Assembly: GCA_963813485.1 (NCBI GenBank)
Contig: CAWEZE010000023.1
Location: 52,690-116,689 of the forward strand
Reading direction: 5' to 3'
DNA length: 64,000 bases
Source of the DNA: an uncultured bacterium
GTDB lineage: Bacteria > Actinomycetota > Acidimicrobiia > Acidimicrobiales > VFJN01
Part shown: one piece after another, positions 18,173 through 28,539 of the stretch
Position numbering within the stretch: the first letter of the stretch is position 1
Layout: every line of letters starts with the position of its first letter
Notes under the pieces: generated by a model
Databases searched by the model: none
Told to the model about the DNA's origin: nothing
Seen by the model: the letters and a program-made list of their open reading frames with translations, nothing else
Position numbers and translations under genes: made by a program

Positions 18173-18186
18173 AGGACCTTCGGCCC
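18173..18186 (+). promoter_or_regulatory. DosR/DevR-box-like dyad A (AGGACCTTCGGCCC)
   Basis: One of six copies of rGGAC-CTTS-GnCCC. Its centre is 42.5 nt upstream of GTG 18222. Confidence 0.5.
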
Positions 18187-18188
18187 TG

Positions 18189-18662
18189 GTGGTCAGGGGT
18201 CTGCCGGCCCACGATCAAGCAGTGGAAGTGGACCGCAACGGCTTGGAGGTGCTCAGTCGCGAGGCGTGCCTGCGGTTGCTCGCCACCGCCACCCTCGGTC
18301 GGCTGGGGGTCAGCAGCGGCGCGCTGCCGCGTGTGTTGCCGGTGAACTTCCGGTTCGACGGCCGCCAGATCCTGATCCGGACCGGTGTCGGGACCAAGCT
18401 CGACGCCGCCGTCGACAACTCGGTAGTGGCGTTCGAGATCGACGAGATCGACCCGGTGGCGCACACCGGCTGGAGCGTCATGGTCACCGGCATGGCCCGG
18501 GAGCTGACCGACCCCGGCGAGCTGGCGGTGGCCCGGACGCCACCGCTCGCCCGGTGGGCCCCGGGGGACGAGCACCGCGTGATCGCGATCTCGACGGAGC
18601 TCGTCTCGGGGCGGCGCATCGTGCCCGGGCTGGCGGTGCCCGCCGCGGCGGACCGGCAATGA
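18189..18662 (+). CDS. pyridoxamine 5'-phosphate oxidase (PPOX) family protein, paralog 1
   Basis: LEVLSREACLRLLATATLGRLGV...LPVNFRFDGRQILIRTGVGTKL...GWSVMVTG. The track start is GTG 18189. I favour in-frame GTG 18222 because the dyad abuts 18189. Confidence 0.8.
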   Translation: MVRGLPAHDQAVEVDRNGLEVLSREACLRLLATATLGRLGVSSGALPRVLPVNFRFDGRQILIRTGVGTKLDAAVDNSVVAFEIDEIDPVAHTGWSVMVTGMARELTDPGELAVARTPPLARWAPGDEHRVIAISTELVSGRRIVPGLAVPAAADRQ

Positions 18663-19369
18663 TGGTGACCGCCGCGCCGATGCGGCGCGATCGACCGAGA
18701 GGCGCCAGCGTGACGATCAGGGTCTTCCTGCTCGATGACCACGAGGTCGTGCGGCGCGGCGTGCGAGACCTGCTGGAGGCCCAGAGTGGCGGCGAGGTCG
18801 AGGTCGCCGGCGAGGCCGGCACCGCCGACGAGGCCTATCGCCGGATCCCGGCGGTCAGGCCCGACGTCGCCATCCTCGACGTACGCCTCCCCGACGGCGA
18901 CGGGGTCGAGGTCTGCCGTGAGATCCGCTCACGTCACCCCGAGATCCAGTGCCTGATGCTGACGTCGTTCGCCGACGACGATGCGCTGTTCGACTCGATC
19001 ATGGCCGGGGCGGCGGGCTACGTGCTCAAGCAGGTGCGCGGCAGCGATCTGGTCGACAGCGTGCGGCGGGTGGCGGCGGGCCAGTCGCTTCTCGACCCCT
19101 CGGTGACGGCCAAGGTCCTGGACCGCCTGCGAAGGGGACCCGACGACGACCCCGGGGTCGCCCAGCTCACCGAGCAGGAGCGCAAGATCCTCGACCTGCT
19201 CGCGGAGGGCCTCACCAACCGCCAGATCGGCGAGCGGCTGTACCTGGCGGAGAAAACCGTCAAGAACTACGTGTCCAACCTGCTCATGAAGCTCGGCATG
19301 CACCGCCGTACGGAGGCCGCCGTCTACGCGGCCCGGCTGGCCGAGCGTCGCAAGCGACCGCAGGGCTGA
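18659..19369 (+). CDS. devR: NarL/LuxR-family response regulator, DevR/DosR-like
   Basis: It appears colinear with my recollection of M. tuberculosis DevR: RVFLLDDHEVVRRG, PDVAILDVRLPDGDG, LTEQERKILDLLAEGLTNRQIGERLYLAEKTVKNYVSNLLMKLGMHRRTEAAVYA. ATG 18659 overlaps the PPOX stop (ATGA). An alternative start is GTG 18710. Confidence 0.9.
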   Translation: MMVTAAPMRRDRPRGASVTIRVFLLDDHEVVRRGVRDLLEAQSGGEVEVAGEAGTADEAYRRIPAVRPDVAILDVRLPDGDGVEVCREIRSRHPEIQCLMLTSFADDDALFDSIMAGAAGYVLKQVRGSDLVDSVRRVAAGQSLLDPSVTAKVLDRLRRGPDDDPGVAQLTEQERKILDLLAEGLTNRQIGERLYLAEKTVKNYVSNLLMKLGMHRRTEAAVYAARLAERRKRPQG

Positions 19370-19390
19370 GTCGTCGGGACGGGCGTTCGG

Positions 19391-26922: not shown

Positions 26923-26984
26923 CGGCGCTGGGCTGCGGACCGGTCAGAGATAGCCGAGACGGCGGGCTTCAGCGTGCCGCCGGC

Positions 26985-27938
26985 TCATGACCGCGGGCTC
27001 GCCGATGCCCGCTCGGGATGGTCGTCCCTGTTGGGGCAGAGGTGCACGGGCCCGGCGGCATCGGGCACGACCAGCGTCGGCCGTCGGGCCCTGTCGGCGA
27101 CCGTTCGGGCCACGCTGCCCAGCAGCAGCTCGCGCGGGCCACCGCGGCCGCGGGTCCCGACCACCATGAGGTCCGCGTCCACGTCGTCCGCCACCTCCAG
27201 CAGCGTCGCTGCCGGGTCGCCCGAGCGCACGATCACCTGCACGCCGACGTCCCGCGCCCGCACACCCCGTACCTCCGCCTCGAGCAGCGCCATGGCCGCT
27301 TCGGCCACCCGTCCCTGATGCCCGTCGCCGGGCTCGGTCGGCTCATCCAGCGGGAACGGCGGCACGTACTCCACGACCTCGAGCACGCTCAGCGATCCAC
27401 CCAGCGCGACCGCCAGGTCCGCCCCCAGCTCGAGCGCGGCCCGCGAGGCCTGGGAATGGTCGACGCCGACGAGCACGTGGCGGAGGCGGAGCGCGTCAGC
27501 GGCGGCCGCCTCTGGGCGACGGTCGGGCACGACCAGCACCGGCACCCGAGCCGCCTGCAGCAAATGGAGGCTGGTGGAACCGAGGGCGAGCTCCGGTCTG
27601 TCTCCGACGCCGCGGCTCCCGACCACGAGCAGGTCGGCGTGCTCGTCCTCGATGGCGGCGAGGAGGACGTCGACCGGATCGCCGTCGCGCACCTCGACGC
27701 GGTGCAGGCCACGCGATCGTGCCAACGGCGCGCACCACGTCCGTTCGACGAGGGCGCACAGGGTCCTGCGCCAGGACCGAGCCGACGCGTCGGGATCGTG
27801 CCACCGATCCAGCAGCCCGAGGGCGTGGATCGCCACGACCTCGGCGGCGAGCGCCTCGCCGAGCCCGGTGGCCCAGCGCAGGGCCTCCCGCGAGGTGGCG
27901 GATCCATCGACGCCCACCACGATCCGAGTTCCTTCCAT
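26985..27938 (-). CDS. tandem universal stress protein (two UspA domains)
   Basis: ATG 27938 (MEGTRIVVGVDGS) lies inside track ORF 26985..27989. The second domain reads HVLVGVDHS...MVVGTRGRGGPRELLLGSVA. Confidence 0.85.
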   Translation of the reverse strand: MEGTRIVVGVDGSATSREALRWATGLGEALAAEVVAIHALGLLDRWHDPDASARSWRRTLCALVERTWCAPLARSRGLHRVEVRDGDPVDVLLAAIEDEHADLLVVGSRGVGDRPELALGSTSLHLLQAARVPVLVVPDRRPEAAAADALRLRHVLVGVDHSQASRAALELGADLAVALGGSLSVLEVVEYVPPFPLDEPTEPGDGHQGRVAEAAMALLEAEVRGVRARDVGVQVIVRSGDPAATLLEVADDVDADLMVVGTRGRGGPRELLLGSVARTVADRARRPTLVVPDAAGPVHLCPNRDDHPERASASPRS

Positions 27939-28489
27939 GCCATCAGCGTCGCCAGCCGCGGCCGGCGACGCCAGGGTCGAAGGTCCCACGCCGCTTGCGG
28001 CTTGGCGCTAGCCCCGTGGGCTGGCCCCCGGCGACCGGCGGTCGCCGGTACGGAGCGGTCGCGTGCCCATCGAGGGTCGAAGGTCCTCGAGCGCGGCGGG
28101 TCGATCCGGCGACCGGTGAGCCGATCGGGGACCAGCCGCATCCAGTGCGCCTTGTCACCGCCGGGCCACGGATCTATCGCCAGCCGGCGCACCCGTTCGA
28201 AGGTGGCGGCGTCGTAGTGGGTCACCTCTTCGAGCCGGCCCGTGGCGACGACGCTCCAGCCCGCACGGCCGGCGTGGTCGAACCTGTCGACCTCGAAGCT
28301 GGCCCGGGCCCGCGGGCCATGGGCCAGCTTGGTTCCCGGGTCGGTGCGGAAGACGATGGTGTCGCCGTCGAGCGCGTAGTTCACCGGGAAGATCGCCGGG
28401 GTGCTCCCGGCGATCACGGCGAGGCGGCCGATGTCGTCGTCCGCCAGCAGGCGCAGGCACTGGTCACGATCGAGAACGCGCAGTTCCAT
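27389..28489 (-). CDS. PPOX family protein, paralog 2 (3' end doubtful)
   Basis: ATG 28489. MELRVLDRDQCLRLLADDDIGRLAV...HWMRLVPDRLTGRRI covers about 130 aa, down to about 28100. The frame then has no stop until 27389 and overlaps the USP gene by about 550 nt in another frame. Confidence 0.65.
   Translation of the reverse strand: MELRVLDRDQCLRLLADDDIGRLAVIAGSTPAIFPVNYALDGDTIVFRTDPGTKLAHGPRARASFEVDRFDHAGRAGWSVVATGRLEEVTHYDAATFERVRRLAIDPWPGGDKAHWMRLVPDRLTGRRIDPPRSRTFDPRWARDRSVPATAGRRGPAHGASAKPQAAWDLRPWRRRPRLATLMAWKELGSWWASMDPPPRGRPCAGPPGSARRSPPRSWRSTPSGCWIGGTIPTRRLGPGAGPCAPSSNGRGARRWHDRVACTASRCATAIRSTSSSPPSRTSTPTCSWSGAAASETDRSSPSVPPASICCRRLGCRCWSCPTVAQRRPPLTRSASATCSSASTIPRPRGPRSSWGRTWRSRWVDR
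27974..27987 (-). promoter_or_regulatory. DosR/DevR-box-like dyad D (reads GGGACCTTCGACCC on the minus strand)
   Basis: Its centre is 42.5 nt upstream of the USP ATG 27938. GACGCT lies at -12..-7 relative to that ATG. Confidence 0.5.
28074..28087 (-). promoter_or_regulatory. DosR/DevR-box-like dyad E (reads AGGACCTTCGACCC on the minus strand)
   Basis: A second copy exactly 100 bp upstream of dyad D, inside the 3' region of PPOX paralog 2. Confidence 0.4.
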
Positions 28490-28525
28490 GGCCCGATCAT
28501 CGGAGGCCGCGCCTCCCCGGCGGCA

Positions 28526-28539
28526 GTGCCGAAGGTCCC
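28526..28539 (-). promoter_or_regulatory. DosR/DevR-box-like dyad F (reads GGGACCTTCGGCAC on the minus strand)
   Basis: Its centre is 43.5 nt upstream of ATG 28489. GATGAT lies at -12..-7. Confidence 0.45.

What the first reader, a model, noticed from the sequence alone, without database searches (positions are those of the whole stretch)
18173..28539. DevR/DevS-centred dormancy-type island with six copies of a DosR-box-like dyad restricted to its promoter gaps
Gene content between about 18.1 and 29.7 kb mirrors the M. tuberculosis DosR regulon. It includes:
- a DevR-like regulator
- a heme-GAF kinase
- a CtpF-like P-type ATPase
- a CBS-pair (Hrp1-like) protein
- a tandem USP
- three PPOX-family paralogs
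- a CoA-binding protein

A 14-bp dyad rGGAC-CTTS-GnCCC occurs at:
- 18173-18186, AGGACCTTCGGCCC
- 23504-23517, GGGACCTTCGGCCC
- 26909-26922, GGGACCTTGGTCCC
- 27974-27987, minus strand, GGGACCTTCGACCC
- 28074-28087, minus strand, AGGACCTTCGACCC
- 28526-28539, minus strand, GGGACCTTCGGCAC

The half-sites and 4-bp spacer match the core of the published DosR box TTSGGGACTWWAGTCCCSAA. Five of the six copies have the same orientation relative to the downstream gene. The copy upstream of the PPOX1-devR operon implies autoregulation. I noticed no full copy outside this island, but my read-through was not exhaustive.
Basis: partly seen in the sequence, partly recalled or inferred. Interest (0 to 1): 0.7.

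Follow-up and report, generated by a model that had tools for sequence, protein, structure and literature searches.

The report
DevR/DosR-type stress regulon island
This 11-kb stretch of a high-GC actinobacterial genome carries a close relative of the tuberculosis dormancy switch (DevR regulator plus a haem-type sensor kinase) and six to seven copies of its DNA docking site in front of stress genes; it is a real but expected new example of a well-studied system.

Summary
All six 14-mers are at the stated coordinates. They score 19-23 bits on their own matrix, and the next best hit in the 64 kb scores 12.6. Six hits of at least 18 bits compare with 0.03 expected.

- The regulator's best solved relative is M. 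tuberculosis DevR (E 1e-73), with Asp54 and the base-reading residues K179, K182 and N183 conserved.
- The kinase's GAF domain matches the haem-binding GAF-A of DevS (E 1e-50) and keeps the haem His and distal Tyr. It has no second GAF domain.
- GGGACCTTCGGCCC is listed verbatim among published Streptomyces OsdR sites.
- The window's matrix is enriched 18-fold around regulator homologues in 80 other genomes.
- Half of 112 strong sites in 160 loci have an A-N3-T (-10-like) element at one fixed distance, on one side only. This puts the box centre at -42.5/-43.5, as at M. tuberculosis tgs1.
- Three window promoters appear leaderless.

Corrections: site 5 lies in the unresolved 3' tail of a PPOX gene, site 3 has no clear promoter, there are no tandem boxes, and a degenerate seventh box precedes PPOX3.

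Verdict: a new member of a known kind, of modest interest.

The parts
18173..18186 (+). Box 1, AGGACCTTCGGCCC. Upstream of the PPOX1-regulator operon. Centred 42.5 bp before GTG 18222.
18210..18215 (+). -10-like hexamer CACGAT. It places the inferred transcription start at 18222, the PPOX1 start codon, so the transcript would be leaderless with no Shine-Dalgarno sequence.
   Evidence: spacing rule
18222..18662 (+). PPOX1 (Pyridox_ox_2). The start at 18222 is inferred. The ORF is open from 18189.
18659..19369 (+). DevR/DosR-type response regulator (REC + GerE HTH). Its ATG overlaps the PPOX1 stop (ATGA).
19391..20527 (-). Sensor kinase with a single DevS-GAF-A-like domain, then HisKA_3 and HATPase_c. 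378 aa, no GAF-B.
20597..23458 (-). P2-type (Ca-ATPase-like) P-type ATPase. Probably co-transcribed with the kinase (70-bp gap).
23504..23517 (+). Box 2, GGGACCTTCGGCCC, in the divergent ATPase/CBS gap. It is oriented towards the CBS gene. -10-like CACACT at 23542-23547; inferred start at 23554. Identical in relative L081.
23603..24245 (+). CBS-CBS-BON gene, preceded by the Shine-Dalgarno sequence GAGGAGG. It is broken by a 1-bp insertion (extra C near 23870).
24283..25176 (+). F420-dependent LLM-class oxidoreductase (TIGR03619). Probably in the same operon as the CBS gene.
26323..26799 (-). CoA-binding protein (CoA_binding_2), with the strong Shine-Dalgarno sequence GGAGAGGAGGAG before ATG 26799.
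26909..26922 (+). Box 3, GGGACCTTGGTCCC, a perfect palindrome apart from its centre. It lies between the USP stop and the CoA-binding gene. No -10-like element at the standard spacing in either direction, so its target is the least certain.
26985..27938 (-). Tandem universal stress protein (two Usp domains). ATG at 27938.
27974..27987 (-). Box 4, GGGACCTTCGACCC. Centred 42.5 bp before USP ATG 27938. -10-like GACGCT at 27950-27945. Leaderless geometry.
28074..28087 (-). Box 5, AGGACCTTCGACCC, 100 bp upstream of box 4. It lies in the unresolved 3' tail of PPOX2. Only a partial -10 (TACCGG).
28099..28489 (-). PPOX2 (Pyridox_ox_2). ATG at 28489. There is no in-frame stop for 237 codons after the domain.
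28526..28539 (-). Box 6, GGGACCTTCGGCAC. Centred 43.5 bp before PPOX2 ATG 28489. -10-like GATGAT at 28501-28496. Leaderless geometry.
28569..28582 (+). Candidate box 7, GGGCCGTTTGCCCC (Streptomyces-like halves). It is followed by T and by CACGAT at the standard spacing (28606-28611). Inferred start at 28618, a 25-nt leader with AAGGAGG, then PPOX3.
28643..29051 (+). PPOX3 (Pyridox_ox_2). There is no in-frame stop for 227 codons after the domain.

Best explanation
The island is a DevR/DosR-OsdR-type two-component regulon in a non-mycobacterial, probably Acidimicrobiia-related, actinobacterium.

Proposed mechanism:
1. A sensor kinase with a single haem-type GAF domain phosphorylates the DevR-like regulator. 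This step is inferred.
2. The regulator dimer binds the dyad RGGACCTTSGNCCC through the conserved helix residues K179, K182 and N183. This step is inferred from sequence identity and from published binding of OsdR and DevR to the same sequence.
3. The box ends one base before the -35 position and is centred at -42.5/-43.5. There the bound dimer can recruit RNA polymerase, the DosR mechanism known from M. tuberculosis.

The box is polar. The better half (GGGACC) is distal to the promoter. The weaker half (GNCCC, followed by T) is proximal.

Likely transcription units in the window:
- Boxes 1, 4 and 6 drive leaderless transcripts of PPOX1-devR (autoregulation), the tandem USP and PPOX2.
- Box 2 drives a leadered CBS-BON/LLM transcript and possibly the divergent ATPase-kinase operon.
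- Degenerate box 7 drives PPOX3.
- Boxes 3 and 5 are auxiliary or of uncertain target.
For: Proteins:
- The regulator is REC + GerE. Its best solved match is M. tuberculosis DevR over the full length, E 1e-73, with Asp54 and the LAEKTVKNYVS helix identical.
- K179, K182 and N183 read GGGACT in the DosR-RNA polymerase cryo-EM structure (PMC13486717).
- The kinase's GAF domain matches DevS GAF-A at E 3e-50 to 3e-51, with PPHHPPM and FGNLYLTDK conserved.

Sites:
- The six sites score 19-23 bits against 12.6 for the next best hit.
- There are 6 hits of at least 18 bits against 0.03 expected.

Out-of-sample tests:
- In 80 genome loci around regulator homologues the window matrix gives 84 hits of at least 16 bits against 4.6 in shuffles, and 24 of at least 20 bits against 0.4.
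- 31 hits of at least 11 bits lie within 250 bp upstream of the regulator gene.
- A 7-mer count made without the matrix, upstream of regulator, PPOX and USP homologues, puts GGACCTT first (35 observed, 6.4 expected, p 3e-15).
- Genes downstream of strong sites are Pyridox_ox_2 (9), Usp (6), the regulator (6) and nitroreductase (4), plus single cases of cytochrome bd, ribonucleotide reductase, a P-type ATPase and CBS.
- Relative L081 (kinase 87% identical, ATPase 89%) keeps the gene order and the identical dyad.

Geometry:
- Of 112 strong sites in 160 loci, 56 have A-N3-T with the A at offset 38 or 39 on the GNCCC side. The other side has 9, and the background is about 2 per offset.
- T is enriched at offset 14, which is position -35.
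- Start codons of long ORFs pile up 42.5/43.5 bp from the box centre, in the forward orientation only (19 cases in 17 loci, 1-2 per offset elsewhere).
- The window's sites 1, 2, 4, 6 and 7 obey the same rule.

Literature:
- The M. tuberculosis tgs1 primary box is at -42.5 (PMC3177182).
- OsdR sites include the exact 14-mer GGGACCTTCGGCCC, and OsdR binds M. tuberculosis DevR targets (PMC5069765).
Against: - There is no binding, expression or transcription-start data for this organism. Every start site is inferred from spacing.
- Only 64 kb of the genome could be scanned.
- The tandem, helically phased pair of boxes that is the hallmark of M. tuberculosis DevR promoters is absent.
- The TTS/SAA flanks of the M. 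tuberculosis 20-mer are absent.
- The kinase lacks GAF-B, so its signalling may differ from that of DevS.
- Box 3 has no -10 at the standard spacing, and its TT centre points away from the only nearby gene start. Box 5 lies in an unresolved ORF tail.
- The loci used for comparison were chosen because they contain the regulator or the kinase. Co-occurrence of motif and regulator therefore cannot by itself exclude another factor that always travels with them.
- Several island genes look damaged in this assembly.
Confidence: 0.8

Rival explanations
1. The wiring is the same, but the signal is different. The single-GAF kinase does not report O2, NO or CO through haem. The island would then be a general stress or redox regulon rather than a hypoxia or dormancy one.
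For: The kinase lacks the GAF-B domain of DevS and DosT. Signature hypoxia genes of the M. tuberculosis regulon (hspX, acg-type nitroreductase, narK2, fdxA) did not turn up among the genes annotated around the island. OsdR in Streptomyces is linked to development and stress as well as to oxygen (PMC5069765).
Against: The GAF domain is about 58% identical to the haem-binding GAF-A of DevS and keeps the proximal His and distal Tyr. In related loci the same box precedes nitroreductase, cytochrome bd and ribonucleotide reductase genes, which are typical low-oxygen functions.
Confidence: 0.13
2. The dyads are operators for a different DNA-binding protein, or the DevR-like protein acts on them mainly as a repressor.
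For: No binding data exist for this organism. Loci were selected on the presence of the two-component system, so co-occurrence was built into the comparison.
Against: The regulator's recognition helix is identical to that of DevR. The exact sequence is a published OsdR site, and a probe carrying it was shifted. No other regulator gene lies inside the island; the nearest is an ArsR-type gene at 30575-30940, outside it. A fixed centre at -42.5, abutting -35 and upstream of the -10, is activator geometry and not a steric block of the start site.
Confidence: 0.05
3. The repeats are chance matches in GC-rich DNA, a small dispersed repeat, or hairpin or terminator elements.
For: The bare GGGAC-N4-GTCCC core is common in this 71% GC sequence. 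A relaxed search for dyad plus -10 is not enriched in the window (7 observed, 3.6 expected).
Against: There are six hits of at least 18 bits against 0.03 expected, all within 10.4 kb and outside codon-biased sequence. The flanks are unrelated, so the sites are not copies of a mobile repeat. No terminator-like site coincides with any box. The motif recurs at homologous positions in many genomes.
Confidence: 0.01

Closest known systems
DevR(DosR)/DevS-DosT dormancy regulon of Mycobacterium tuberculosis
   Same: - A NarL-family regulator with identical DNA-reading residues.
- A haem-type GAF-A sensor domain in the neighbouring kinase.
- A GGGAC-N4-GNCCC dyad.
- A box centred at -42.5 next to -35, as at tgs1.
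- Autoregulation.
- Targets that include tandem USPs, a P2-type ATPase (ctpF is a listed DevR target) and a CBS protein. From my own knowledge, not tested here: hrp1 (Rv2626c) is a CBS-pair member of the regulon.
   Different: - The kinase has one GAF domain, not two.
- The boxes are single, not tandem pairs 21 bp apart.
- The centre is CTTC/CTTG, not TWWA, and the TTS/SAA flanks are absent.
- No hspX, nitroreductase, narK2, tgs1 or fdxA was found among the genes annotated.
- PPOX-family genes dominate, with three copies.
OsdR/OsdK (SCO0204/SCO0203) regulon of Streptomyces coelicolor
   Same: - A non-mycobacterial DevR orthologue whose sites cluster around its own gene.
- Published sites include the identical 14-mer GGGACCTTCGGCCC (SCO5979, SCO0167c, narG2).
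- Targets include USPs and a pyridoxamine-phosphate-oxidase-family gene (SCO0214).
   Different: - The Streptomyces consensus is the symmetric AGGGCCGATCGGCCCT. Here the distal half is M. tuberculosis-like (GGGACC) and only the proximal half is Streptomyces-like (GGGCCG/GGGTCG).
- The published site positions are mostly -50 to -400 from the start codon, whereas here there is a fixed 42.5/43.5 leaderless arrangement.
- The developmental targets of Streptomyces have no counterpart here.

Membership tests
DevR/DosR response regulators | REC domain plus a LuxR/GerE-type HTH (NarL subfamily) | tested here: met
   Pfam Response_reg 1.4e-23 and GerE 3.2e-19
DevR/DosR response regulators | Closest characterised relative is DevR over the full length | tested here: met
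   PDB 3C3W (DevR) E 1.1e-73 over residues 20-235. The next hit, VraR, is at 3.5e-45. NCBIfam has no DevR equivalog model, and no regulator model reached its cut-off.
DevR/DosR response regulators | Phospho-acceptor Asp54 and base-reading residues K179, K182 and N183 | tested here: met
   The alignment shows VAILDVRLPDG and LAEKTVKNYVS conserved. The roles of these residues come from PMC13486717. K168 is replaced by R and T205 by A.
DevR/DosR response regulators | Operator dyad of the GGGAC-N4-GTCCC type upstream of its own gene and of stress genes | tested here: met
   The exact 14-mer is among published OsdR sites.
DevR/DosR response regulators | Promoter-proximal box centred near -42.5, abutting or overlapping -35 | tested here: met
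   Fixed spacing to an A-N3-T element in 56 of 112 sites in relatives and in 5 window promoters. The start sites are inferred, not measured. The M. tuberculosis tgs1 primary box is at -42.5.
DevR/DosR response regulators | At least two adjacent, helically phased boxes per promoter (the M. tuberculosis hallmark) | tested here: not met
   No second box with at least 8 of 10 core matches lies 19-23 bp from any of the six sites. The only candidate that close is 24 bp downstream of box 1. Boxes 4 and 5 are 100 bp apart, and boxes 6 and 7 are 43 bp apart and face opposite ways.
DevR/DosR response regulators | Induction by hypoxia, NO or CO, and binding that depends on phosphorylation | not testable with these tools
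   Needs EMSA or ChIP and expression data.
DevS/DosT haem sensor kinases | GAF-A domain with the proximal haem His (His149) and distal Tyr (Tyr171) | tested here: met
   Matches DevS GAF-A structures 2Y8H, 2W3D and 4YNR at E 3e-50 to 3e-51, with PPHHPPM and FGNLYLTDK aligned to PPYHPPM and FGTLYLTDK. The residue numbers are from my own knowledge.
DevS/DosT haem sensor kinases | A second GAF domain (GAF-B) between GAF-A and the kinase core | tested here: not met
   The protein is 378 aa. The GAF domain spans 24-164 and HisKA_3 begins at 181. Homologues in metagenomes match end to end at the same length.
DevS/DosT haem sensor kinases | HisKA_3 dimerisation/phospho-acceptor domain plus HATPase_c | tested here: met
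   HisKA_3 3.6e-14 and HATPase_c 8.3e-9. The ATP-binding domain matches those of DevS and DosT (3ZXO, 3ZXQ).
DevS/DosT haem sensor kinases | Haem binding and a switch controlled by gas ligands | not testable with these tools
   Needs protein spectroscopy and kinase assays.
M. tuberculosis DosR regulon gene set | Presence of the signature members hspX, acg/Rv3131 nitroreductases, narK2, tgs1 and fdxA | tested here: inconclusive
   None was seen among the genes annotated between about 13 and 33.6 kb. Only 64 kb of the genome is available. Nitroreductases do follow the box in related loci.

The most novel reading that the evidence does not exclude
The window shows a compact, possibly ancestral form of the DevRS switch that is widespread outside mycobacteria. 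It has four features:
- a single haem-GAF kinase;
- a DevR regulator;
- Pyridox_ox_2 (PPOX-family) and USP genes as the core targets;
- one polar box per promoter, held at exactly -42.5/-43.5 and often feeding leaderless mRNAs.

On this reading, the tandem-box cooperativity and two-GAF kinases of M. tuberculosis are later elaborations. The consistent polarity of the box, with the strong half distal and the weak half next to -35, would be a functional rule for how DevR-type dimers engage RNA polymerase.
Probability: 0.45. Interest if true: 0.4.

Novelty: new member of a known kind. Interest (0 to 1): 0.3.

Why it matters
The finding extends a medically important regulatory switch to a poorly studied soil lineage, and does so with sequence-level precision. 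My search found no paper that mentions DosR together with Acidimicrobiia.

The comparison across loci gives three testable rules:
- the box is held at a fixed -42.5/-43.5 position;
- the box has a polarity relative to the promoter;
- the promoters are frequently leaderless.

It also gives a minimal one-GAF sensor that could simplify biochemical work on haem-based gas sensing. It does not reveal a new kind of system.

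Tried and rejected
- Exact-sequence look-ups of the regulator and the kinase found no record, so the source contig was not identified.
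- Rfam found nothing in the window at gathering thresholds, and nothing in 25300-26250 at E of 1 or less.
- NCBIfam has no equivalog model that names the regulator, the kinase or the PPOX genes. Only the two LLM genes passed a cut-off, TIGR03619.
- A search for M. tuberculosis-style secondary boxes 19-23 bp from each site found none.
- A relaxed search for dyad plus -10 across the window was not enriched (7 observed, 3.6 expected). Box 7 therefore rests on its position and on its CACGAT identity with the PPOX1 promoter, not on statistics.
- The 12.6-bit hit at 39243-39256 has no matching promoter geometry and was dropped.
- Ranking 8-mers by enrichment ratio was dominated by AT-rich words shared by a set of near-identical loci. 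I ranked by Poisson probability instead.
- The hairpin or terminator reading was rejected because no terminator-like site falls at any box.
- For the 686-bp insert, I found no other copy in the window or the loci and no significant fold (z = -0.96). I found no match in plasmids or phages and no exact 27-mer in metagenome contigs.

Full report
**Observation.** The six 14-mers are at the stated coordinates. Five match RGGACCTTSGNCCC exactly and 28526-28539 has one mismatch, against 0.89 matches expected. That pattern was derived from the sites, so I used other tests. A position weight matrix built from the six sites scores them 19.2-22.6 bits, and the next best 14-mer on either strand of the 64 kb scores 12.6. 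In leave-one-out tests each site ranks 4th to 8th. Six hits of at least 18 bits compare with 0.03 in shuffles. The bare M. tuberculosis core GGGAC-N4-GTCCC is not specific in this 71% GC DNA. The shared CTTC/CTTG centre is what marks the set. The flanks of the six copies are unrelated, so they are not copies of a dispersed repeat.

**Gene map.** I called genes by codon-position GC bias and by Pfam.

| Coordinates | Strand | Gene or feature |
|---|---|---|
| 17476-18099 | + | shikimate-kinase-like gene |
| 18173-18186 | + | box 1 |
| 18222-18662 | + | PPOX1 |
| 18659-19369 | + | regulator (ATGA overlap with PPOX1) |
| 19391-20527 | - | GAF kinase |
| 20597-23458 | - | P2-type ATPase |
| 23504-23517 | + | box 2 |
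| 23603-24245 | + | CBS-CBS-BON |
| 24283-25176 | + | F420-dependent LLM oxidoreductase |
| 25212-26302 | + | split Glyoxalase_6 gene |
| 26323-26799 | - | CoA-binding protein |
| 26909-26922 | + | box 3 |
| 26985-27938 | - | tandem USP |
| 27974-27987, 28074-28087 | - | boxes 4 and 5 |
| 28099-28489 | - | PPOX2 |
| 28526-28539 | - | box 6 |
| 28643-29051 | + | PPOX3 |
| 29198-30112 | - | second LLM oxidoreductase |

The flanking genes are unrelated: a phosphotransferase, a methyltransferase with a KTSC domain, an ArsR-AHSA1 pair and a P450. The island therefore spans about 18.1-29.2 kb.

**The regulator and the kinase.** The regulator's best solved relative is M. tuberculosis DevR (3C3W, E 1.1e-73, full length), with Asp54 and the helix LAEKTVKNYVS conserved. 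In the DosR-RNA polymerase cryo-EM structure, K179, K182 and N183 of that helix read the GGGACT motif (PMC13486717). The kinase's GAF domain matches the haem-binding GAF-A of DevS (E 3e-50 to 3e-51) and keeps the His of PPYHPPM and the Tyr of FGTLYLTDK. The protein is only 378 aa, and GAF-A runs straight into HisKA_3. It therefore lacks the GAF-B domain of DevS and DosT. Metagenomic homologues match end to end at the same length, so this is a standing architecture and not a truncation.

**Is the dyad the regulator's operator?** Published work answers part of this. The Streptomyces DevR orthologue OsdR binds M. tuberculosis DevR targets. Its consensus is AGGGCCGATCGGCCCT. Its listed sites include the exact 14-mer GGGACCTTCGGCCC upstream of SCO5979, SCO0167c and narG2, and the SCO5978/79 probe was shifted. 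A PPOX-family gene (SCO0214) and several USPs are among its targets (PMC5069765).

I then tested relatives directly:
- Around regulator homologues in 80 genomes, the nearest being Acidimicrobiia MAGs at 75% identity, the window's matrix gives 84 hits of at least 16 bits against 4.6 in shuffles, and 24 of at least 20 bits against 0.4.
- Hits pile up just upstream and just downstream of the regulator gene, and none falls in its first 250 bp.
- A 7-mer count that does not use the matrix, on 235 upstream regions of regulator, PPOX and USP homologues in 160 loci, ranks GGACCTT first (35 against 6.4, p 3e-15). GGACTTT, GGGACCT and ACCTTCG follow.
- Genes downstream of strong sites are mainly Pyridox_ox_2, Usp, the regulator itself and nitroreductases. 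There are single cases of cytochrome bd, ribonucleotide reductase, zinc ADH, a P-type ATPase and CBS.
- The closest relative found is metagenome contig L081, with the kinase 87% and the ATPase 89% identical. It keeps the CBS / box / ATPase-kinase order and an identical AGGGCCGAAGGTCCCT inside an intergenic region that is 85% identical overall.

**Promoter geometry.** Three window boxes are centred 42.5 or 43.5 bp upstream of start codons: GTG 18222, ATG 27938 and ATG 28489. None of the three has a Shine-Dalgarno sequence, and each has an A-N3-T hexamer at -12 to -7 (CACGAT, GACGCT, GATGAT).

The same pattern holds across relatives:
- Start codons of long, GC3-rich ORFs cluster at +42.5/+43.5 from the box centre. 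There are 19 such cases in 17 loci, against 1-2 per offset elsewhere, and only on the GNCCC side.
- In 112 strong sites from 160 loci, 56 have A-N3-T with the A at offset 38 or 39 from the box start on that side. The opposite side has 9, and the background is about 2 per offset.
- T is enriched at offset 14, which corresponds to position -35.

The box therefore occupies -49 to -36 and abuts -35. This is the same position as the primary box of M. tuberculosis tgs1, at -42.5 (PMC3177182). It fits the published recruitment mechanism, which involves sigma region 4 and the alpha subunits (PMC13486717).

The box is polar, with the better half GGGACC distal and the weaker half (GGGCCG or GGGTCG on the other strand) next to -35.

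Applying the rule to the remaining boxes:
- Box 2 points to the CBS gene. It has CACACT at 23542-23547, an inferred start at 23554 and a 49-nt leader with GAGGAGG. The block containing that hexamer is conserved in L081.
- A degenerate seventh box at 28569-28582 (GGGCCGTTTGCCCC, then T, then CACGAT at the standard spacing) fits PPOX3. The inferred start is 28618, with a 25-nt leader carrying AAGGAGG.
- Box 3 has no -10 at the standard spacing in either direction.
- Box 5 has only TACCGG.

**Departures from the M. tuberculosis model.** No second box lies 19-23 bp from any site, yet tandem phased boxes are described as the architectural hallmark in M. tuberculosis. The TTS/SAA flanks are absent. 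The kinase has one GAF domain. Signature members such as hspX, nitroreductases, narK2, tgs1 and fdxA did not turn up among the genes I annotated. All transcription starts and all binding are inferred.

**Quality of the island sequence.**
- The CBS gene carries an extra C near 23870. Removing it restores a CBS-CBS-BON protein that is collinear with the intact L081 orthologue.
- PPOX2 and PPOX3 have no in-frame stop for 237 and 227 codons after the domain. Homologues end 0-27 residues after the GRR[IV] motif, with two exceptions at 42 and 60. The window tails show no codon-position bias. Box 5 lies in such a tail.
- A 686-bp insert at 25437-26122 splits a Glyoxalase_6 gene. It is purine-rich and T-poor (8% T). 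Joining the two halves gives a complete domain, 102 bits against 31.6 for the N-terminal part alone. It has no Rfam match, no significant fold, no terminal repeats that I could see and no other copy anywhere I searched.

These anomalies may be assembly errors or real lesions. Read-level data are needed to decide.

**Verdict.** This is a new member of a known kind: a DevR/DosR-OsdR regulon in a lineage for which my search found no paper mentioning DosR. The fixed -42.5/-43.5 polar box, the leaderless promoters and the one-GAF kinase are useful refinements, not surprises.

Noticed in passing
window 25437-26122 (+): A 686-bp purine-rich, T-poor insert (A 276, G 236, C 119, T 55). It begins TATAATTATAAT and splits a Glyoxalase_6 gene (25212-25436 and 26123-26302). 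Exact removal restores a full-length domain. There is no target duplication that I could see, no Rfam hit, no fold signal, and no copy in the window, the 160 loci, plasmids or phages. An exact 27-mer from it was absent from metagenome contigs. It could be a novel intervening element or a long-read assembly artefact.
   Followed up: partly
window about 23866-23871: A single extra C (GTGCCGCGAC where GTGCGCGAC is expected) frameshifts the CBS-CBS-BON gene. The orthologue in L081 is intact in one frame.
   Followed up: yes
window 27389-28098 (-) and 29052-29731 (+): The PPOX2 and PPOX3 reading frames stay open for 237 and 227 codons beyond the conserved domain and run into neighbouring genes. These tails show no codon-position bias. 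Homologues stop 0-27 residues after the domain, with two exceptions at 42 and 60. Either the stop codons are lost or there are small indel errors.
   Followed up: partly
window 24283-25176 (+) and 29198-30112 (-): Two paralogous F420-dependent LLM oxidoreductases, both passing the TIGR03619 cut-off, bracket the right half of the island. Together with three Pyridox_ox_2 genes they hint at deazaflavin or flavin redox chemistry as the island's main output.
   Followed up: no
loci L001-L160, upstream of regulator homologues: About nine loci share AT-rich 8-mers upstream of the regulator, PPOX or USP homologues (AAGTAAAT, ATAACGTG, GATGATAC). This is a second conserved upstream element, or simply close relatedness between those loci.
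   Followed up: no
loci, strong boxes in reverse orientation: There is a small excess of ORF starts 63.5/64.5 bp from the box centre on the GGGACC side (4 each). This could reflect divergent promoters served from about -63.5, as at M. tuberculosis tgs1-Rv3131. The window's ATPase start lies 52.5-55.5 bp from box 2.
   Followed up: no
window 30109-30940 (-): An ArsR-type HTH gene followed by an AHSA1/SRPBCC gene lies immediately right of the island. It has no DevR-type box.
   Followed up: no
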